From the IMG/VR virus record IMGVR_UViG_3300014890_000015, positions 1 through 45,853 of that record: DNA of 45,853 bases, one strand, 5' to 3'. Source of the DNA: a virus (taxonomy: Duplodnaviria > Heunggongvirae > Uroviricota > Caudoviricetes). Below, one piece after another: positions 21,061 through 44,301 of this stretch. The notes below the pieces were generated by a model, which was not told where the DNA came from, ran no database searches, and saw nothing but the letters and a program-made list of their open reading frames with translations. A program made the position numbers and the translations under genes. Numbering within the stretch: position 1 is the stretch's first letter; each line of letters opens with the position of its first letter.

Positions 21061-22389
21061 TTACAACGCCGCGTAATTACCGTGCGCGATAATCAATCCA
21101 TAGGTATAACAATCGAAAAGGTCATCAGCACGTTTATGCGCGTCTTTGTCTGCCAGGTGGAACCCGGCGATTTGTTTAATGAGGTGGTTTGCGGTGGTAC
21201 GTTTGAATGAAACGGTCTTGTCGTAAGCCTCCCGGACGATTTTGCACATCCCCTGATAGTGGTAGCTGGATGCCATCACCGCCCGTTCGTCTTTACCTTT
21301 GCTGGTCAGTGCCGATTTAATCGGCGTCATATCCCAGCCTTCGGTTTCCGCCTTCTGGGTGAGGATTGCCCCCATCGCGGCGTCTTCCATAAAAATTCCC
21401 TGGCTGCCCAGACGCGGACGGCATAATTTCGCGAGGCGCTCGAGGTTGTCATAAACGCCGGGGATATATTCAGGAAGCAATGACGCTTTAATTTGCGTCA
21501 CATCCCAGTCAATAATCGTCAGTTTTGGCTCGTCCGAATACGTTGACTCATAAGCGAAATACACCACGCCAGTACCATCATTTTCGGTCCCGCCTTTCAA
21601 CGCCGTATCCATCACTGCGAAAATCATGTCGCAGTGCGGCGGCATCTCAACCGGCTGACCGTCCACCAGCAGCTTATCGACATCGAGTAACGCATCTTTG
21701 GACCAGTCCACGAACTCGGCAAGATATTCCTGCTGCCAGACGCGCGGATCGGATTTCTTCTCCGTTTCCTCCAGTTCTTCTTTCGGAATGTACGGATTCG
21801 ACGAAGTTGGCGCATGGTGCATGACAAATCCCAGGGATTCATCGTGGCATATCGCGTAGAAAAAATTGCTCTCGTCGATGCCGTTTGGTGTGGAAAATAC
21901 CCACGCACAGCCGCGGTAATCGACAAGCGTCGGGCGTATAGCGCGGGGCCAGATTTCCTCGAGCATTTCCGGCGATTTAGTGAATGCGGCCTCATCAATC
22001 AGCACAGCGTGATATTTACGCCCACGCCCGGCCAGTTTGTTATTGTCCGTTACCCAAAAGTCGATGCGCCCCCCATTACGGAGAATGATGCGCTTTTCAT
22101 TTTTTGACTGACTGAGGATCAGCGGTTGCAGAACGGCGCTAATTTCATCCCAGATTTCCTGGTACTGGCGGTATTGCGCGGTAAAAATCCCCACCCTACC
22201 CGCGATAAGTTGCCCGGTGGTAGGAACGGCAAATTTCCGCGTAGCGAAACTGGTAGCGATGTTCACCAGCATCACCGTTTTACCCCAGCGACGACCACAG
22301 CATACCGCGTGGAAGCGTTCCTCTATTGCCGCCGTCCATGCAGCTATTTGCCCCTCATGAGGTTTTGGGAGGTAGATTTCAATCGACAT
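21061..22389 (-). CDS. terminase large subunit
   Basis: Walker A-like CCGRRWGKT, Walker B-like VLIDEAA, and STPNG / EYLAEF nuclease-region motifs. Confidence 0.7.
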   Translation of the reverse strand: MSIEIYLPKPHEGQIAAWTAAIEERFHAVCCGRRWGKTVMLVNIATSFATRKFAVPTTGQLIAGRVGIFTAQYRQYQEIWDEISAVLQPLILSQSKNEKRIILRNGGRIDFWVTDNNKLAGRGRKYHAVLIDEAAFTKSPEMLEEIWPRAIRPTLVDYRGCAWVFSTPNGIDESNFFYAICHDESLGFVMHHAPTSSNPYIPKEELEETEKKSDPRVWQQEYLAEFVDWSKDALLDVDKLLVDGQPVEMPPHCDMIFAVMDTALKGGTENDGTGVVYFAYESTYSDEPKLTIIDWDVTQIKASLLPEYIPGVYDNLERLAKLCRPRLGSQGIFMEDAAMGAILTQKAETEGWDMTPIKSALTSKGKDERAVMASSYHYQGMCKIVREAYDKTVSFKRTTANHLIKQIAGFHLADKDAHKRADDLFDCYTYGLIIAHGNYAAL

Positions 22390-23470
22390 TATCCACTCCC
22401 GGCATCGGCAAAGAGTTGTGGATAATTATTTCGTTATTCTCACCACCCACGCCTTTTTTGAGGTTTTCAATCTCAGTGCGCAGCTTTTCGTTGCGAAGCC
22501 TCAGTCCTTCAAGCTCCAGATCATTGCGACTGTCAGTTGCACCACCAGCAGAACTTCCTTTCGTCGCCATTATCAGCTTGATAAGTTCGCGCCGGGCGGC
22601 AGCCTTATCCTCCAGCAGGATCTCAACACCAAATTTCCCGAGCTTTGCCCCTGCATATAATTGCCGCGCATCCCCATCAAGCAGAGTGGTATCAGCCATA
22701 TAAAGCTGCCCCGTTCCCTCACCGCAGCACTTCGGGCAGTCCGGATTGGGTATGGCGTTATCAACAAAGCCGAGGCCTCCATATTCCGGCTCGGGTTTGC
22801 CATCTCTGGAGGCCTGTGCCGCTGCCTTATCGAATTCTGCAATATCACGCCACTGGTAGAGATGATTCTCGCCCCAGCAATAACGGCAGTTAACACGGCG
22901 AAATTGTGCAAGCTGATTGGGGTCGGCCTGGACAATGGCCATCAACTGACTCACCAGTAAATCCAGGTCTGCGGTATAGCGTTTCTGGTACTGATTGCGG
23001 AAATAGCTGATGGCACGATAAACCTTAGGATTTCTTAGGAGCTGGCTGGCAGTGACGTAGGCCGCATTCCCCTCTGACTCGTATCCTGCCAGGCGATATG
23101 CCTCAACGAGTTTTCTCCCCTGTGCAACCAGCATCGCAAACTTAGCCTGCTGGTCAGAAATGCCGAATTCATCGGGACAGAATGAAATTTTCTCTGCGTC
23201 GCCCTCATTCAGGCGCGCATCGGATACTGACTTTTTTATCTGAGATTTTCCGTTCCGCTTTTGCGCAGTCTGCGCAGATTTTTTCTGCGCACTTTTTTGC
23301 GCAGTTTTGCACATTTCTGTCTGCGCATTTTTCGGAGGTTTTTTGATGTAACGACGGGCTGTTGCGTAATTCAGTCCCCTTGCTTCACACCATGCCACCG
23401 GAGATATACCGTAGCGGGTGTATTCAGCAATATACTCCTGCTGCAACGCCCCCCAGTCCGGTCTGCTCAT
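22379..23470 (-). CDS. terminase small subunit (DNA-binding, Zn-ribbon containing)
   Basis: N-terminal HTH-like segment, CPKCCGEG motif, overlaps terL start; contains AQK-type repeats. Confidence 0.5.
   Translation of the reverse strand: MSRPDWGALQQEYIAEYTRYGISPVAWCEARGLNYATARRYIKKPPKNAQTEMCKTAQKSAQKKSAQTAQKRNGKSQIKKSVSDARLNEGDAEKISFCPDEFGISDQQAKFAMLVAQGRKLVEAYRLAGYESEGNAAYVTASQLLRNPKVYRAISYFRNQYQKRYTADLDLLVSQLMAIVQADPNQLAQFRRVNCRYCWGENHLYQWRDIAEFDKAAAQASRDGKPEPEYGGLGFVDNAIPNPDCPKCCGEGTGQLYMADTTLLDGDARQLYAGAKLGKFGVEILLEDKAAARRELIKLIMATKGSSAGGATDSRNDLELEGLRLRNEKLRTEIENLKKGVGGENNEIIIHNSLPMPGVDNVD
23262..23328. repeat. five spaced copies of TGCGCA(G/C/T) inside terS 5' region (candidate pac/terminase-binding repeats)
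   Basis: Copies at about 23262, 23271, 23286, 23298, 23322. Confidence 0.4.
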
Positions 23471-26210: not shown

Positions 26211-26285
<75 letters not shown>

Positions 26286-26288
26286 ATA

Positions 26289-26364
<76 letters not shown>

Positions 26365-28604: not shown

Positions 28605-29090
28605 TTAGTTTTGCTGTTCTATTTTAAGCTTGATAGTTTCATACAAAACAATAGTTGCGCCTGTTTTACATAATTCCCGACTGTCATACGCACGAGACCA
28701 ATAACACAACCAATTTTCAAGCTCTTCTCGTGTATAAATTTTACAGGCCAGCCCCTCAGCCATCTCCACAACTTCATCGCCTGGTGCGGTTAATTCGTAT
28801 CCATTTAACAATAAAAAAACCGCACCAGCCATCATTGCTGTGCGCTTGTTTGCATTGGCAAATGGATGATTCTGAATCAGACTTTCAATCAATACCGATG
28901 CCAGTACAAACATGTCGTTGGTTTGCTCATACCATCGAACCATACTGGGACGAGACTGAGAAGAGCTTAAATTATCAACACTCAGCACACCAACAGGTTC
29001 ATCTGGTGTTTGAAGCTCAATTAAAAGGCGATTAATTTCAGTAAGATCATCAACCGAAAGGTAGTGCACTCCTTCAACAATCTCAGCCAT
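28605..29090 (-). CDS. Doc-like (Fic/Doc family) toxin
   Basis: HPFANANKRTAMMAG matches the Doc H-x-F-x-(D/N)-(A/G)-N-K-R signature; 9-nt gap after an upstream small ORF. Confidence 0.65.
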   Translation of the reverse strand: MAEIVEGVHYLSVDDLTEINRLLIELQTPDEPVGVLSVDNLSSSQSRPSMVRWYEQTNDMFVLASVLIESLIQNHPFANANKRTAMMAGAVFLLLNGYELTAPGDEVVEMAEGLACKIYTREELENWLCYWSRAYDSRELCKTGATIVLYETIKLKIEQQN

Positions 29091-29108
29091 AGAGCACAAT
29101 ACCCATCA

Positions 29109-29497: not shown

Positions 29498-29653
29498 TTA
29501 CTTCTCAGATACGTAGTCCACGAAGACAGCGACCTCCGTCTGGCCGGTTCGGATTCGTACCTCGCAGAGGTCTTTCCTCGTTACCAGTGCCGTCACTATG
29601 ACGGTTAAACAGATGACGATCAGGGCGATTAACATCGCCTTTTGCTGCTTCAT
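29498..29653 (-). CDS. hok: Hok/Gef-family type I toxin
   Basis: 51 aa MKQQKAMLIALIVICLTVIVTALVTRKDLCEVRIRTGQTEVAVF... ; AAGGAG RBS; upstream in-frame/overlapping leader consistent with mok-like region. Confidence 0.8.
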   Translation of the reverse strand: MKQQKAMLIALIVICLTVIVTALVTRKDLCEVRIRTGQTEVAVFVDYVSEK

Positions 29654-29992
29654 AGCCTGCTTCTCCTTGCCTTTCGGCACGTAAGAGGCTAACCTGATGT
29701 TGTCATGCATAGGGAGCCTCAGATTAATGTTAAGCGTCTTGCCGGACGCGTAATGTTAACTGGGGCTTTTCTCTGCCTGCCTTACAGTGGCATGCCCGAG
29801 GCAGACAGCCTCAAGCACCCGCAGCAATCTTACCGACACCGATAAGAAAACGCTATTTTTTATTGCCAGCACCTTCTATCCAGGCTAATTTATCTGCGTC
29901 AGAACGGCGCAATGCGCTCGCCTGAGATACGTTTACTTGCCATGGTAACAACAGATAACGGCAATTGTTGTTTCTGTTTTGTTTCCTTCAAA

Positions 29993-30025
29993 AACCCCGG
30001 ACCATCAATCCGGGGTTTTTGTTTG
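29993..30025. terminator. bidirectional terminator-like hairpin (CCCCGG...CCGGGG)
   Basis: Flanked by A5 and T5 runs; between the 274-aa gene and the hok leader. Confidence 0.4.
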
Positions 30026-30105
30026 TTATCCCCAACGGCAAATCGAATACACCACCAGCGCCACCGCCATTGCAATTCCTACCGTTGTGAACGCTTCAGA
30101 CCAGG

Positions 30106-30930
30106 TCATCGCAAAACATCCTCTGCACTTATCAGTTCGTTCCGCTTCAGGTAGTCCATCGCCTTATCCGGCAATTTACAGTCCGGCTTCACTTTCTTCA
30201 GTTGACTGACCAATTGCTTAACCAGCATGGTTAATTCGTCAGTCTGTTTGCCTGGTACTGGTGGATTGTCGGTTGTTCCATGACTGGCAGTACAGTTGGC
30301 ACTTCCTCCCTTCTCCTCCCGCAGCGGTTCAGGCAACGCATCCAGTGAAGCTTTCACAAACCACGCTGCCTGTACTATAACGCCATGAATCCAGCGCAAA
30401 TCAGCATCACGATCTTTCTTTTTCATCTTCTCGCCACTTAAAGCCTGGCTTATGTGGCTGCGTACCAGGTCTTCATGTAACTCCTTCGCATCCTCAATAG
30501 TGAAACCACCAGGCAGGCGAGCCGAGGTTACATGAGGGTTGCCTTCCCTCTGACTCTGAAGCATGGCGGCGCGGCAGGCGTTCCAGCCATCAACATAATC
30601 AAACGTATTGCTATCGTCTGGCTCGATTTCAGCCGGCACTATCAGCGCAGGCTGGACGGCAACATTGGCAAAGGCTGCACGCAAACCGGCCTTAATTTCC
30701 TCTACTTCATCAGCGCCTAGCGATGAATCTGACAATGCGTGATGGAATGCGTAAGCCATGTCGTCGTTGATTTCTACAGACACACTATCAGCCTTGCGGC
30801 GCTCCTGTAGCTCGCGCAGAGCCGCTGCAACATAATGACTATTGTGCTGGTCAGCCCACAGAATGAGCCGAATCAACGTTGCATTTGAAACGTATTCGTC
30901 TGTTAGTTTGCTATTGGTAAAAGTGGTCAT
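30106..30930 (-). CDS. hypothetical protein (274 aa)
   Basis: Long ORF in nin-like region; no family recognised. Confidence 0.4.
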   Translation of the reverse strand: MTTFTNSKLTDEYVSNATLIRLILWADQHNSHYVAAALRELQERRKADSVSVEINDDMAYAFHHALSDSSLGADEVEEIKAGLRAAFANVAVQPALIVPAEIEPDDSNTFDYVDGWNACRAAMLQSQREGNPHVTSARLPGGFTIEDAKELHEDLVRSHISQALSGEKMKKKDRDADLRWIHGVIVQAAWFVKASLDALPEPLREEKGGSANCTASHGTTDNPPVPGKQTDELTMLVKQLVSQLKKVKPDCKLPDKAMDYLKRNELISAEDVLR

Positions 30931-30982
30931 GCCGTAGCCCCTTCTTGATATTTTTCAAACCAGAACACAACCGGGTCAGATT

Positions 30983-31270
30983 TCATTTCAACCAATCCCN
31001 NNNNNNNNNAAGGAATTCACGACGACCATCACTGATAATTCGCCGATAATCTTCCAGGCTACTGCAATGCTTGTGCAGATTGCATGGGTGGCATGCCGGA
31101 ACCATGTTGGATATATCGTCACGATCCTGGTGAAGCATATTTCCAGCAAAACGAATGACCGGTTTTACGTGGTCTGCGTGCCACTTTTCGCCAAGTTCGC
31201 AGCCGCAATAAGCACAGCGACCGCCGAACTTCATGCGTAATTCTGCACGTTGTTTTTTCGTCAGTGCCAT
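30983..31270 (-). CDS. HNH endonuclease (3' end interrupted by 10-N gap)
   Basis: CAYCGC...HADHVKP...CHPCNLHK HNH/Zn motif; AAGGAA RBS at ATG 31270; Ns at 31000-31009 fall inside the C-terminal codons. Confidence 0.55.
   Translation of the reverse strand: MALTKKQRAELRMKFGGRCAYCGCELGEKWHADHVKPVIRFAGNMLHQDRDDISNMVPACHPCNLHKHCSSLEDYRRIISDGRREFLXXXXDWLK
31000..31009. other. run of 10 ambiguous bases (assembly gap or mask)
   Basis: Literal n characters in the sequence. Confidence 0.95.
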
Positions 31271-31271
31271 T

Positions 31272-31490
31272 TCAGTTTTCCTTATATGGATTAATTTTAT
31301 TGTGCAGTGTATTGAACGACGCCCATACCACGTCGTTATACAATTCAATAAATAGCTCAATTATTTTTCCGATTCCCCATACCAGAATTAAAGGGGATAT
31401 CGGTATCATCAACACGATAAACAGAATGAGAAACAGGAGTTCTATTACCCTGCTTTTTCGCGGATAAATTTTTTTAAATAATGTAGGCAT
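31272..31490 (-). CDS. small membrane protein (72 aa)
   Basis: AAAGGAGAG RBS; one long hydrophobic segment; AT-rich; 1-nt gap to HNH start. Confidence 0.45.
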   Translation of the reverse strand: MPTLFKKIYPRKSRVIELLFLILFIVLMIPISPLILVWGIGKIIELFIELYNDVVWASFNTLHNKINPYKEN

Positions 31491-31491
31491 A

Positions 31492-31686
31492 TCACTCTCC
31501 TTTAGTGCGGAAGTGGTTTTTCCAGCGGTTTTGTGCCGCGCTTCTGTTTCGCCAGACACCGTAAAAACGAATAGAGGACCACTCCCTAAAACCAAGATAT
31601 CTATAGCGAACAACAAGTCGATTTGAGATACGAATAAGTTGCCCTGGCTTTGCTATCAGCAGTCTTGCCTTACGGTTTTTCATCAT
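31492..31686 (-). CDS. hypothetical basic protein (64 aa)
   Basis: AGGAGA RBS; ATGATG start overlapped by stop of upstream small ORF. Confidence 0.35.
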   Translation of the reverse strand: MMKNRKARLLIAKPGQLIRISNRLVVRYRYLGFREWSSIRFYGVWRNRSAAQNRWKNHFRTKGE

Positions 31687-31853
31687 TTTGCTCTCCTGCG
31701 TTTCTTTGCTTCGCGTCGTGCAGCAGCAATACCGGTATGGCGCTTTGGTGCCGGGATGATGTTGTCAGCCATCAGGATATTCGGCTTTGCAATTAGCGCA
31801 GAAGCCCAAAAACGAGTCGGGTACGGTAACAGGCCGATACATGCCACACGCAT
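31683..31853 (-). CDS. hypothetical protein (56 aa; not in ORF track)
   Basis: AAGGAGGTGA RBS and ATG overlapping upstream stop (TAATG); stop overlaps next start. Confidence 0.35.
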   Translation of the reverse strand: MRVACIGLLPYPTRFWASALIAKPNILMADNIIPAPKRHTGIAAARREAKKRRRAK

Positions 31854-32332
31854 TACTCACCTCCTTTGGCGTCAATATTTACAGCCTGGCAAGCCTCGTT
31901 GAGCACCCAGTCAACCGCGTCTTTCCATGCTCCGGTTTCAGCTGGCGGATTCTCACACTTTACCTGTTCATAGAAGCGTACAGCCTTAACCAGTCCGTCC
32001 GGCACTGCCTGTACCATCTGCGCCCTGACCCACGCCACCCGCGACGGGTTCATATGGCACATGTTGTTCCTTTTTTCTTCATGGTAATGCCCATTACTCT
32101 CGTTAAATGGCAACACCTCATACAGCCCGGCACTTCTGAAATCCGTGTGTAATTGTTCCAGTGCCGCTTCGCTGGGGGCACCAATTAATGTGAGATAATC
32201 AAAAAGATTGGCGCATAAACCATAACTTTGAGAAAACACCCCGCCGGGTTTCGCCCCATTACTCAGCCACAAATCATAAGCAATATAAAACCCGTAAAGC
32301 TGTTGTCTGATATTTTCTTTGATGTCTTGCAT
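31853..32332 (-). CDS. hypothetical protein (159 aa)
   Basis: GGTGA RBS before ATG 32332. Confidence 0.4.
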   Translation of the reverse strand: MQDIKENIRQQLYGFYIAYDLWLSNGAKPGGVFSQSYGLCANLFDYLTLIGAPSEAALEQLHTDFRSAGLYEVLPFNESNGHYHEEKRNNMCHMNPSRVAWVRAQMVQAVPDGLVKAVRFYEQVKCENPPAETGAWKDAVDWVLNEACQAVNIDAKGGE

Positions 32333-43925: not shown

Positions 43926-44120
43926 ATGCGGTATGAAAAAGTCAAAGCATGTCCGTTTTGTGGTTGTCCATCAGTAACGGTGAAAGCTATTTCAGGATAT
44001 TACCGCGCGAAGTGTAACGGATGCGAATCCCGAACCGGCTATGGTGGAAGTGAAAAAGAAGCACTCGAACGATGGAATAAACGAACCACTGGAAATAATA
44101 ATGGAGGTGTTCATGTATAA
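43926..44120 (+). CDS. Lar-family restriction alleviation protein
   Basis: MRYEKVKACPFCGC...C..C...ERWNKR zinc-ribbon pattern typical of Lar/RalR. Confidence 0.55.
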   Translation: MRYEKVKACPFCGCPSVTVKAISGYYRAKCNGCESRTGYGGSEKEALERWNKRTTGNNNGGVHV

Positions 44121-44301
44121 AATTACCGCCACTATTGAAAAGGAAGGTGGCACTCCTACTAACTGGACAAGGTACTCAAAAACAAAGTTAACCAAATCGG
44201 AATGCGAAAAAATGCTCTCGGGGAAAAAAGAAGCAGGCGTTTCCAGAGAGCAGAAAGTAAAGCTGATAAATTTTAATTGCGAGAAACTTCTGCCCTCGTG
44301 A
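44113..44301 (+). CDS. hypothetical small protein (62 aa)
   Basis: GGAGGTG RBS before ATG 44113. Confidence 0.4.
   Translation: MYKITATIEKEGGTPTNWTRYSKTKLTKSECEKMLSGKKEAGVSREQKVKLINFNCEKLLPS

What the first reader, a model, noticed from the sequence alone, without database searches (positions are those of the whole stretch)
30983..31853. Tightly coupled operon of three small proteins ending in an HNH endonuclease
Four ORFs are chained with 1-nt gaps or overlaps: a 56-aa and a 64-aa basic protein, a 72-aa AT-rich membrane protein, then an HNH endonuclease. Only the HNH gene is in the ORF track at full length, and two of the small genes carry strong RBSs. A membrane peptide fused in an operon to a nuclease is reminiscent of toxin or exclusion modules rather than packaging HNH enzymes, which normally sit beside terminase. 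The HNH 3' end crosses the 10-N gap, so its true C-terminus is unknown.
Basis: partly seen in the sequence, partly recalled or inferred. Interest (0 to 1): 0.4.

Follow-up and report, generated by a model that had tools for sequence, protein, structure and literature searches.

The report
Ordinary prophage early-gene cassettes with HNH
The four chained genes are real, but they are independently shuffled accessory cassettes in the early operon of a Rac-like E. coli prophage, including a small stand-alone HNH nuclease, and not a dedicated toxin or exclusion module.

Summary
All four ORFs exist on the minus strand with the stated 1-nt gaps and overlaps. They match known phage families: phrog_13831 (56 aa), phrog_1380 (64 aa), DUF4014/PF13198 (72 aa, one transmembrane segment) and PF01844/phrog_2118 (HNH).

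The chain is not a closed four-gene operon. A 159-aa gene is coupled upstream (TAATG). Once the N run is resolved, the HNH overlaps a 274-aa gene downstream (ATGA). Relatives show that the 10 Ns stand for 32 nt, giving a 121-aa HNH with intact zinc and catalytic residues.

The window is a Rac-like lambdoid prophage. The block lies between the replication genes and the Q-like antiterminator, 7.5 kb from a headful-type terminase, so the HNH is not a packaging enzyme.

Each gene assorts independently:
- HNH directly follows DUF4014 in only 11 of 80 DUF4014 loci.
- DUF4014 neighbours the HNH in only 2 of 79 species-level genomes.
- The four-gene block occurs in 5 of 80 HNH loci.

No promoter, terminator, RNA family or defence-system match sets the block apart. 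This is ordinary, already-catalogued phage mosaicism. The roles of the nuclease and the small proteins remain untested. One residual oddity: the same HNH family abuts DUF4014 in the opposite order in HK225 and P22-like phages.

The parts
31853..32332 (-). 159-aa early gene, coupled upstream neighbour (its stop TAA overlaps the ORF56 ATG by 1 nt)
   Evidence: phrog_26213, phrog_6418, phrog_660 segments; 100% identical in E. coli ECL27977
31683..31853 (-). ORF56: 56-aa basic protein (pI 11.8) with a conserved arginine/lysine-rich tail ...IPAPKRHTGIAAARREAKKRRRAK
   Evidence: phrog_13831 E 2.7e-38; pN/pS 0.22 with third-position bias; 17 distinct variants, all open
31492..31686 (-). ORF64: 63/64-aa very basic protein (pI 12.0). 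Ends are conserved (MKNRKAK... / ...AAQNRWKNH[LF]RTKGE*) and the middle is variable. Often left unannotated
   Evidence: phrog_1380 E 1.1e-12; most of 21 variants open at 62-65 aa; pN/pS 0.40; no Rfam hit and fold z-score +0.31; 12 representative clusters in 1.84 billion proteins
31492..31545 (-). Conserved gene-boundary sequence (3' end of ORF64, Shine-Dalgarno AAAGGAGAG, stop). In relatives it is followed by different genes: DUF4014, HNH or a 933W L0068-type gene
   Evidence: conserved at nucleotide level, with no third-position bias in its variable columns
31272..31490 (-). DUF4014 family protein: 72 aa, AT-rich, one hydrophobic segment (about residues 17-41) after a positively charged N-terminus
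   Evidence: PF13198 80.5 bits against a cut-off of 23.2; phrog_1832; an identical protein is in public databases (P0136); hydropathy
30927..31270 (-). Stand-alone HNH (beta-beta-alpha-Me, zinc-finger) endonuclease. True length is 121 aa, with 32 nt hidden by the N run. Its stop overlaps the next gene's ATG (ATGA)
   Evidence: PF01844; phrog_2118 E 3.4e-56; alignment restoring the gap; invariant C19 C22 H31 D33 H34 N55 C60 C63 N64 K67; AF2 pLDDT 90.6
31000..31009 (.). Run of 10 N standing for 32 nt of HNH coding sequence
30106..30930 (-). 274-aa gene coupled downstream (the MTTFT... Ead/DUF551-neighbour type). This is the last gene of the coupled run
   Evidence: phrog_12449, phrog_660, phrog_924; the relative in E. 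coli A8 is annotated as DUF551 domain-containing
29989..30021 (.). Bidirectional terminator-like hairpin (AAAAACCCCGGA...TCCGGGGTTTTT), 85 nt after the 274-aa gene and before the hok/sok module

Best explanation
The region is an ordinary stretch of the mosaic accessory-gene array in the rightward early operon of a Rac-like lambdoid prophage. This array is the counterpart of the lambda nin region and the P22 ea region.

The genes are co-transcribed from the early promoter region near 37.0 kb. They are read one after another by translational coupling, through stop/start overlaps or 1-nt gaps, each with a Shine-Dalgarno motif in the tail of the preceding gene.

Each gene is a separately exchangeable cassette. 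Short conserved sequences at the gene boundaries are shared with unrelated genes. Recombination therefore swaps single genes in and out, and tight coupling is a property of the whole array, not a sign of a four-gene unit.

The HNH is a small stand-alone zinc-finger HNH nuclease with intact catalytic residues, made only during lytic growth. My committed reading of its role (inferred, about 40%) is a free-standing, homing-type or otherwise selfish nuclease cassette that rides in polycistronic operons. An accessory DNA-processing role is the next most likely (about 25%).

DUF4014 is a single-pass inner-membrane peptide of unknown target. ORF56 and ORF64 are small, very basic, probably nucleic-acid-binding proteins.
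For: Context.
- The window matches Rac-type prophages at ttcA, with intR, xisR, ralR/RalA, recE, recT and ydaS-V-type genes.
- The block lies between DUF1627/ydaV-type replication genes and the YbcO, DUF1367 and DUF1133/Q-like genes.
- All genes from about 37077 to 30106 are on one strand.
- Only one weak promoter-like site and no minus-strand terminator lies in 30100-32332. There are 4 promoter-like sites in the region against 10 expected from shuffles.
- A terminator-like hairpin follows at 29989-30021.

Cassette behaviour in DUF4014-anchored loci.
- In 80 such viral loci the gene after DUF4014 always starts 1 nt after the stop.
- That gene is an 87-aa protein (37 loci), a 933W L0066-type protein (12), HNH (11), a 125-aa zinc-ribbon-like protein (5), a 78-aa protein (1), or directly an MTT[FI]T-type gene (13). 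One contig ends at this point.

Cassette behaviour in HNH-anchored loci.
- In 80 such loci DUF4014 is directly upstream in 58, ORF64 in 5 and a 159-aa-like gene in 5.
- Twelve have another arrangement: two have one gene between DUF4014 and the HNH, and ten show no recognised upstream gene.
- The full ORF56 > ORF64 > DUF4014 > HNH order occurs in 5.

Shared boundary sequences.
- The ORF64 3' end precedes DUF4014, HNH or an L0068-type gene.
- The HNH 3' end recurs in a 55-aa chimeric ORF.

Wider HNH family.
- Homologues at 61% (Klebsiella), 75% (Yersinia) and 49% (Salmonella) identity lie in early or nin-type regions without DUF4014.
- At species level, DUF4014 is adjacent in 2 of 79 loci. A 4-nt overlap is the commonest junction on both sides.
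- Neighbours are Ead/Ea22, NinG, DUF551, DnaB, DNA methylases, RusA, NinE, VRR-NUC and Lar. None of the 25 neighbour families listed is a terminase.

Nuclease integrity.
- Both CxxC pairs, H31-A-D33-H34, N55 and N64 are invariant.
- pN/pS is 0.07 and the model is confident.

Prevalence in 5,426 complete E. coli genomes.
- HNH is full length in 385.
- DUF4014 is present in 697.
- The full ORF56+ORF64 segment is present in 13.
Against: - No experiment exists for any of the four proteins, and three literature searches found nothing. Every functional role here is inferred.
- The same HNH family abuts DUF4014 in the opposite order in HK225, a P22-like phage, and 11 of 42 related viral loci. This is more recurrence than a purely random cassette model would suggest.
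- 58 of 80 close HNH copies do have DUF4014 upstream, although these are near-identical lineages and not independent events.
- Homing is unproven. No target site or inheritance bias was tested. The protein is small for a sequence-specific homing enzyme, and strong purifying selection across phyla also fits a function useful to the phage.
- The promoter and terminator scans are consensus matches only.
Confidence: 0.8

Rival explanations
1. One reading: DUF4014 (membrane peptide) and the HNH, perhaps with the two basic proteins, form a dedicated toxin or superinfection-exclusion module. The membrane component would sense or gate, and the nuclease would kill or degrade incoming DNA.
For: - The genes are adjacent and translationally coupled.
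- DUF4014 is directly upstream in 58 of 80 close HNH copies.
- The same HNH family sits directly upstream of a DUF4014 that is about 50% identical, in HK225, BIS08P22 and 11 of 42 related loci.
- A frameshift-fused DUF4014-HNH ORF is on record from Shigella sonnei (P0002).
Against: - DUF4014 lacks a directly following HNH in 69 of 80 loci and lacks an adjacent HNH in 31 of 42 loci.
- HNH lacks DUF4014 in 77 of 79 species-level genomes and in the Klebsiella, Yersinia and Salmonella prophages examined.
- There is no own promoter, so no expression is expected in the lysogen.
- PADLOC has no hit for the small proteins and only weak HNH-core similarity to PtuB, with no PtuA partner present.
- The coupling extends equally to unrelated flanking genes.
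Confidence: 0.08
2. The HNH is a structure-specific DNA-processing nuclease useful to the phage, like T4 endonuclease VII or lambda Rap/NinG. It would trim branched replication or recombination intermediates during lytic growth.
For: - The gene lies in a nin-type region. Relatives lie next to NinB, YbcO, RusA, NinG, DnaB and VRR-NUC genes.
- There are PHROG hits to families labelled endonuclease VII: phrog_1035 at 3.5e-12 and phrog_2914 at 2.5e-8.
- There is a weak Pfam NinG hit at 4.3e-4.
- Full-length BFVD structural matches include two proteins labelled recombination endonuclease VII, with TM 0.70-0.76.
- Purifying selection is strong across many phyla.
Against: - The gene is dispensable: it is full length in 7% of complete E. 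coli genomes and absent from most otherwise similar arrays.
- It co-occurs with NinG or RusA and does not replace them.
- No hit to the Pfam endonuclease VII family was returned at E <= 0.01.
- The solved T4 endonuclease VII structure matches only weakly: probability 0.44, TM 0.31.
- The 'endonuclease VII' labels are automatic names.
Confidence: 0.25
3. ORF64, and less likely ORF56, is not a protein gene. On this view the stretch is a conserved recombination linker or RNA element that merely stays open.
For: - ORF64 has weak third-position bias (161/205/246), and its conserved 3' end varies without codon-position bias.
- PGAP leaves it unannotated in ECL27977, and 933W leaves the equivalent unannotated.
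- The family is very small.
Against: - The ORF is kept open at 62-65 codons, with the same ATG, the same stop and the ATGA coupling, across at least five sub-types that are under 55% identical. My calculation for the chance of this in random sequence is about 0.05 per lineage.
- pN/pS is lowest in the ORF frame: 0.40 against 1.02 and 0.63 in the other two frames.
- It matches phrog_1380 over its full length.
- There is no Rfam match and no excess RNA structure, z = +0.31.
- ORF56 has a clear coding signal: pN/pS 0.22 and positions 25/31/83.
Confidence: 0.1
4. The HNH is a terminase-associated packaging nuclease of the HK97 gp74 type.
For: - It is similar in size (121 aa) and shares the CxxC...DH...N...CxxCN motif with the Gme/HK97-type small HNH proteins (4h9d E 0.042).
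- Such enzymes are described as sitting next to cos sites and terminase genes (PMC3592412 abstract).
Against: - The terminase genes are at 21061-23470, 7.5 kb away beyond the Q-like gene and the tRNAs, and are Terminase_2 / Terminase_6N types.
- None of the 25 families listed for the 127 family neighbours is a terminase.
- Relatives sit in early regions.
Confidence: 0.02

Closest known systems
Lambda nin region / P22 and ES18 'ea' region / 933W early-left ORFs L0066-L0068 (mosaic accessory arrays of lambdoid phages)
   Same: - A same-strand run of small, mostly non-essential genes in an early operon.
- Stop/start overlaps throughout.
- Mosaic joints exactly at gene borders.
- Direct homologues: DUF4014 corresponds to 933W L0067, epsilon15 gp46 and ES18 gp39. 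ORF56 and ORF64 relatives lie upstream of L0068 in 933W.
   Different: - Here the cassettes lie right of the replication genes in a Rac-type prophage, whereas in 933W and P22-like phages they lie in the leftward exo-xis/ea region.
- The particular combination 159 > 56 > 64 > DUF4014 > HNH > 274 is rare. Four complete E. coli records cover at least 80% of it.
Small phage HNH endonucleases of Pfam PF01844 / phrog_2118
   Same: - The beta-beta-alpha-Me core, two CxxC zinc pairs, and the DH...N...N catalytic pattern.
- 98-100% identical proteins are already annotated 'HNH endonuclease' in E. coli and in phage ArgO145.
   Different: - It matches only positions 161-275 of the 301-position phrog_2118 profile. 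The best BFVD structural matches (TM 0.70-0.86) are longer proteins of 146-247 aa.
- The C-terminal helical part has no close solved relative: PDB Foldseek E > 0.01, and the low-rmsd alignments span only about 75 columns.
HK97 gp74-type terminase-associated HNH
   Same: Size and motif.
   Different: - Not adjacent to terminase or a cos site.
- The terminase here is a headful-type pair.
Free-standing homing endonucleases of phages (T4 seg/mob genes; HNH such as I-HmuI), from general knowledge
   Same: - Sporadic presence or absence at a fixed intergenic slot.
- No own promoter.
- Very high conservation compared with the flanking genes.
- Also found inserted in F-type conjugation operons.
   Different: - No target site, cleavage or inheritance bias has been shown.
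- It is much smaller than characterised examples and has no recognised DNA-binding module.
Septu PtuB / retron-associated HNH effectors
   Same: Weak HNH-core similarity (PADLOC PtuB 4.3e-8; NCBIfam TIGR02646 at 20.9 bits against a 52.15-bit cut-off).
   Different: - No PtuA ATPase or retron neighbour.
- Scores are far below the family cut-offs.
- It is half the length.

Membership tests
HNH endonuclease (Pfam PF01844, His-Me finger) | Profile match above the curated cut-off | tested here: met
   30.0 bits against a cut-off of 21.4 on the 87-aa part before the gap; phrog_2118 E 3.4e-56 on the restored 121 aa
HNH endonuclease (Pfam PF01844, His-Me finger) | Catalytic His, structural Asn, metal ligands and two CxxC zinc pairs are present and conserved | tested here: met
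   C19, C22, H31, D33, H34, N55, C60, C63, N64 and K67 are invariant in 42 homologues down to 48% identity. The residues align with the Gme HNH structure 4h9d
HNH endonuclease (Pfam PF01844, His-Me finger) | Beta-beta-alpha-Me fold | tested here: met
   AF2 model has pLDDT 90.6. The core superposes on Cap5, Cas9-HNH and Gme HNH at 2-3 A over about 75 alignment columns, but Foldseek E > 0.01
HNH endonuclease (Pfam PF01844, His-Me finger) | Nuclease activity | not testable with these tools
   Needs purified protein
Terminase-associated packaging HNH (HK97 gp74 type) | Gene lies next to terminase or a cos site | tested here: not met
   The terminase small and large subunit genes are at 22379-23470 and 21061-22389, 7.5 kb away. 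None of the 25 families listed for 127 family neighbours is a terminase
DUF4014 (Pfam PF13198) | Full-length profile match above the cut-off, about 70 aa | tested here: met
   80.5 bits against 23.2, residues 2-72 of 72
Two-gene toxin / exclusion module (membrane peptide + nuclease) | The partners co-occur consistently across relatives | tested here: not met
   HNH follows DUF4014 in 11 of 80 loci. An adjacent HNH is seen in 11 of 42 loci of the other DUF4014 sub-type. DUF4014 is next to HNH in 2 of 79 species-level genomes
Two-gene toxin / exclusion module (membrane peptide + nuclease) | Own promoter, or expression from the resident prophage | tested here: not met
   No minus-strand promoter-like or terminator-like site sets the block apart. 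The scan is consensus-based only
Two-gene toxin / exclusion module (membrane peptide + nuclease) | Match to a catalogued defence or toxin-antitoxin family | tested here: not met
   PADLOC gives none for ORF56, ORF64 or DUF4014 and only weak PtuB/PDC-M01B HNH-core hits. Rfam finds sok and RalA elsewhere in the window, not here
Two-gene toxin / exclusion module (membrane peptide + nuclease) | Toxicity or exclusion phenotype | not testable with these tools
   Needs expression and plating assays
Free-standing homing endonuclease | Sporadic presence or absence at a conserved site between genes | tested here: met
   The slot after DUF4014 holds HNH, other genes or nothing. A chimeric 55-aa ORF carrying the HNH 3' end occurs in 15 loci
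Free-standing homing endonuclease | Cleaves the endonuclease-free allele and is over-inherited in crosses | not testable with these tools
   Needs biochemistry and phage crosses
Lambdoid early-operon accessory array (nin/ea type) | Lies between the early regulatory/replication genes and the late regulator, or between int-xis and the recombination genes. Same strand, overlapping starts and stops, mosaic joints at gene borders | tested here: met
Septu PtuB | Paired with a PtuA ATPase; full-length PtuB profile match | tested here: not met
   Only residues 6-79 match positions 20-88 of a 227-position profile. No ATPase is adjacent

The most novel reading that the evidence does not exclude
DUF4014 and this HNH family are functional partners after all. 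The evidence is their recurrent direct adjacency in both gene orders: DUF4014 > HNH in E. coli/Stx/Rac-type phages, and HNH > DUF4014 in HK225 and P22-like phages at about 50-60% protein identity. The partnership could be a membrane-anchored or membrane-gated nuclease acting at the site of DNA entry. The HNH family would then work alone or with other partners outside Escherichia and Salmonella phages.
Probability: 0.08. Interest if true: 0.5.

Novelty: already known. Interest (0 to 1): 0.12.

Why it matters
It matters little beyond housekeeping.

- The locus is a textbook case of lambdoid mosaicism, and all four proteins already sit in public family catalogues. Identical or 98-100% identical copies are on record.
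- Useful by-product 1: the HNH C-terminus is recovered despite the N run.
- Useful by-product 2: the analysis shows that ORF56 is a conserved small-protein gene. ORF64 probably is too. Standard annotation often skips ORF64.
- Useful by-product 3: 'tightly coupled' cannot be read as 'functional module' in phage early operons.

If the residual HNH-DUF4014 linkage turned out to be functional, it would add a small membrane-associated nuclease system to phage biology. The present evidence is against that.

Tried and rejected
- **RNA element in the ORF56/ORF64 stretch.** Rfam at E <= 1 found nothing. The fold energy is no better than shuffles, z = +0.31. Rejected.
- **Known defence or toxin-antitoxin system.** PADLOC and NCBIfam gave only sub-threshold HNH-core hits (PtuB, IscB, TIGR02646). 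Rejected.
- **Solved-structure relatives that would name a function.** The PDB sequence search gave at best Gme HNH at E 0.042. PDB Foldseek gave only generic HNH cores. BFVD gave uncharacterised phage HNH proteins. Uninformative.
- **AlphaFold test of DUF4014-HNH packing** using the natural frameshift fusion P0002.
- **Literature.** Searches for 'DUF4014', the PHROG label 'released from the phage upon host infection', 'O-polysaccharide acetyltransferase inhibitor', and HNH + nin region + lambdoid found no paper. Broader exo-xis and HNH-prophage searches returned papers, read as abstracts only, that do not treat these genes.
- **The 'acetyltransferase inhibitor' name** attached to some DUF4014 records. 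It also appears on phage records such as HK225 and Salmonella phage P6, and epsilon15 gp46 is a DUF4014 homologue. I found no experiment behind it, so it is not adopted.
- **NinG/Rap membership.** The Pfam hit is 20.6 bits, below the 25.4-bit cut-off. Not adopted.
Full report
**1. What is in the sequence**

All relevant genes are on the minus strand.

| Gene | Coordinates | Junction to the previous gene |
|---|---|---|
| 159-aa gene | 32332..31853 | first gene of the run |
| ORF56 | 31853..31683 | its ATG shares one base with the preceding TAA |
| ORF64 | 31686..31492 | ATGA/TGATG overlap; relatives use the second ATG, 31683 |
| DUF4014 (72 aa) | 31490..31272 | 1-nt gap |
| HNH | starts 31270 | 1-nt gap |

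- Each start is preceded by a Shine-Dalgarno motif.
- ORF56 and ORF64 are very basic, with pI 11.8 and 12.0.
- The 72-aa protein has a charged N-terminus and one strongly hydrophobic stretch. Its GC content is 34%, against 48% for the window.

**2. The gap**

- The Ns are at 31000..31009.
- I aligned the region with E. coli ECL27977 and A8 and with phage ArgO145. They are about 97-100% identical on both sides of the gap.
- The alignment shows that the 10 Ns stand for 32 nt.
- With those 32 nt the HNH gene is 366 nt / 121 aa. It ends ...GLVEMKSDPVVFWFEKYQEGATA*.
- Its TGA overlaps the ATG of the next gene (30930..30106, 274 aa) as ATGA.
- The apparent early stop (DWLK*) is a frame artefact of the placeholder.
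- The chain therefore does not end at the HNH. The coupled run is six genes (32332..30106).
- A bidirectional terminator-like hairpin follows at 29989-30021.

**3. Are the small ORFs genes?**

- All four match PHROG families over their full length: phrog_13831, phrog_1380, phrog_1832 and phrog_2118. The 72-aa protein is Pfam DUF4014, at 80.5 bits against a 23.2-bit cut-off.
- From 164 related loci I extracted every copy.
- In-frame pN/pS values:

| Gene | pN/pS in the ORF frame | Differences by codon position 1/2/3 |
|---|---|---|
| ORF56 | 0.22 | 25/31/83 |
| ORF64 | 0.40 | 161/205/246 |
| DUF4014 | 0.24 | 10373/5455/15298 |
| HNH | 0.07 | 1197/1035/8860 |

- ORF64 is the weakest case. For comparison, its other two frames give 1.02 and 0.63.
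- Its ends are conserved at the nucleotide level and its middle is highly variable.
- It nevertheless keeps the same start, the same stop and a length of 62-65 codons in sub-types that are under 55% identical.
- It has no Rfam match and no excess RNA structure.
- I take both small ORFs as real genes, ORF64 with about 90% confidence.
- The ORF64 family is tiny: 15 clusters, and 12 representatives among 1.84 billion proteins.

**4. Where the block sits**

- The window is a Rac-like lambdoid prophage next to ttcA.
- It carries intR, xisR, ralR with RalA RNA, recE and recT. It also has a divergent regulatory region near 37.0-37.1 kb and ydaS/T/U/V-type genes.
- It further carries DUF1627, YbcO, DUF1367, a DUF1133/Q-like gene, two tRNAs, lysis genes, and a Terminase_2 / Terminase_6N pair.
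- The finding lies in the stretch between the replication genes and the Q-like gene. That stretch is the counterpart of the lambda nin region.
- In 933W, P22-like phages, ES18 and epsilon15 the same cassettes lie instead in the leftward exo-xis/ea region.
- No promoter-like or terminator-like site on the coding strand isolates the four genes.

**5. Is it a unit?**

No.

- DUF4014-anchored viral loci (80). The gene that starts 1 nt after DUF4014 is:
  - an 87-aa protein in 37 loci;
  - a 933W L0066-type protein in 12;
  - the HNH in 11;
  - a 125-aa zinc-ribbon-like protein in 5;
  - a 78-aa protein in 1;
  - directly an MTT[FI]T-type Ead/DUF551-neighbour gene in 13;
  - unknown in 1, where the contig ends.
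- HNH-anchored loci (80).
  - DUF4014 is directly upstream in 58. These copies are 94-100% identical, so they are not independent events.
  - ORF64 is directly upstream in 5, and a 159-aa-like gene in 5.
  - Twelve have another arrangement: two have one gene between DUF4014 and the HNH, and ten show no recognised upstream gene.
  - The full ORF56 > ORF64 > DUF4014 > HNH order occurs in 5.
- Prophages of other genera.
  - In Klebsiella (61% identity) the HNH lies between DnaB and DUF551/NinE/NinG/Q.
  - In Yersinia (75%) it lies right after NinB and before YbcO/RusA/Q.
  - In Salmonella (49%) it lies after an RNase_T/Ead-like gene.
  - None of these has DUF4014.
- Species-level scan of one genome per species with the family profile.
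  - It returned 80 loci from Enterobacterales, Acinetobacter, Comamonas, Vibrio, Paracoccus, Sphingobacterium and others.
  - DUF4014 is adjacent only in E. coli and Shigella, 2 of 79 loci.
  - A 4-nt overlap is the commonest junction on both sides of the HNH.
  - The 127 distinct immediate neighbours include DUF6012, Ead/Ea22, NinG, DUF551, DnaB, two kinds of DNA methylase, DndB, RusA, NinE, VRR-NUC, Lar and Rha.
  - Two loci lie in F-type transfer operons, next to TraU, TraN and TrbC.
  - None of the 25 families listed is a terminase.
- Family ranges. DUF4014 is narrow: 123 clusters, in Escherichia, Shigella and Salmonella.
- Prevalence in 5,426 complete E. coli genomes.
  - The HNH is full length in 385, DUF4014 is present in 697, and the ORF56+ORF64 segment is complete in 13.
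  - Only four records cover at least 80% of the 1.7-kb query around the block.

**6. How the cassettes are joined**

The joints fall exactly at gene borders, and the border sequences are shared by unrelated genes.

- The ORF64 tail (...CAAAACCGCTGGAAAAACCACTTSCGCACTAAAGGAGAGTGAT) precedes DUF4014, the HNH or an L0068-type gene.
- The DUF4014 tail (...TAAGGAAARCTGAWATG) precedes all the alternative downstream genes. Several of those genes share their first codons (MALTKK / MATLTKK).
- The HNH tail (...PVVFWFEKYQEGATA*, ATGA) recurs in 15 loci at the end of a 55-aa chimeric ORF. I read that ORF as a deletion remnant of the HNH.

This is the classical pattern of lambdoid mosaicism (general knowledge). 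It explains why tight coupling holds across the whole array.

**7. The nuclease**

- In 42 homologues down to 48% identity the following are invariant:
  - the two CxxC pairs (C19/C22 and C60/C63);
  - H31-A-D33-H34;
  - N55, N64 and K67.
- The AlphaFold model is confident, with pLDDT 90.6 and pTM 0.78. It shows an HNH core plus a C-terminal helical part.
- Solved structures match only the generic core: Cap5, Cas9 HNH, Gme HNH and T4 endonuclease VII, all with E > 0.01.
- BFVD holds full-length matches (TM 0.70-0.86), but they are uncharacterised phage proteins.
- It is not a packaging enzyme: the terminase is 7.5 kb away and of headful type.
- Its role is inferred only.
  - I lean towards a free-standing selfish or homing-type cassette, at about 40%. 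The reasons are its sporadic presence at a fixed slot, its very high conservation relative to the flanks, the lack of its own signals, and its presence in both phage and conjugation operons.
  - A structure-specific or accessory DNA-processing role is the next most likely, at about 25%. The reasons are the nin-type neighbourhood, similarity to families labelled endonuclease VII, and strong purifying selection across phyla.
  - The remainder is unassigned.

**8. The residual oddity**

- In HK225, in a P22-like Salmonella phage, and in 11 of 42 viral loci carrying the epsilon15/HK225-type DUF4014, an HNH of the same family lies directly upstream of DUF4014 with an ATGA overlap. It is 61% and 49% identical to the window's.
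- Adjacency in both orders is more than I would expect from a very large cassette pool. However, both genes belong to the same small slot between Ead-like and EaA/DUF551-like genes, and most copies of each lack the other.
- I give a real functional partnership about 8%.

**9. Verdict**

- The gap is resolved.
- The 'toxin or exclusion module' part does not.
- The locus is ordinary and already catalogued, and no protein in it has a tested function.

Noticed in passing
L176:1618-2210 (phage HK225), L175:1585-2219 (Salmonella phage BIS08P22), L177-L218: An HNH of the same family (61% and 49% identical) lies directly upstream of an epsilon15-type DUF4014 with an ATGA overlap. This is the reverse of the order in the window. 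It occurs in 11 of 42 related viral loci.
   Followed up: partly
L013:2995-3162, and 14 similar loci among L015-L059: A 55-aa ORF joins an MTTIT...LASLEAEP N-terminus to the last ~15 residues of the HNH (PVVFWFEKYQEGATA*). It looks like a deletion remnant of the HNH cassette.
   Followed up: partly
window 31492-31686 and relatives: ORF64 has nucleotide-level conserved ends (MKNRKAK... / ...AAQNRWKNHLRTKGE*) around a highly divergent middle that keeps an (I/L/V)SNR(R/L) motif. PGAP does not annotate it in ECL27977, and the 933W record does not annotate the equivalent.
   Followed up: partly
P0002 (Shigella sonnei, 194 aa): A frameshift fuses DUF4014 and the HNH into one annotated ORF (...NKINPYRKADMALTKK...).
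   Followed up: no
window 29648-29820 (-): A sok antisense RNA (Rfam RF01794, 109.6 bits) of a hok/sok-type module lies just downstream of the terminator-like hairpin. The corresponding gene is annotated hokD in relatives.
   Followed up: no
window 44119-44297 (-), with ORF 44041-44301 (+): RalA antitoxin RNA (RF02694, 216.7 bits) lies opposite the ralR toxin gene, as in Rac.
   Followed up: no
window 28605-29099 (-): A Fic/DOC family protein (PF02661, E 1.7e-11) is encoded between the hok/sok module and the DUF1367/YbcO/Q-like genes. It may be a moron-type cargo gene.
   Followed up: no
window 26214-26364 (-): Two tRNA genes lie between the Q-like gene and the lysis genes. The corresponding pair is annotated tRNA-Gly and tRNA-Thr in the relative ETEC1706.
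   Followed up: no
L233 and L291 (genome contigs): Members of the same HNH family sit inside F-type conjugative transfer operons. TraU, TraN and TrbC are among the Pfam families of the neighbours, coupled on the same strand.
   Followed up: no
E. coli plasmids, hits of window 31492-31853: 221 of 555 matching places for the ORF56/ORF64 segment are on plasmids. Examples listed are 86-90 kb replicons, with the ORF56 half next to Ead/Ea22-like genes. These may be phage-plasmids.
   Followed up: no
DUF4014 records in public databases: Some records name DUF4014 'sugar/O-polysaccharide acetyltransferase inhibitor', and PHROGs labels it 'released from the phage upon host infection'. Neither label could be traced to any paper in the library.
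   Followed up: partly
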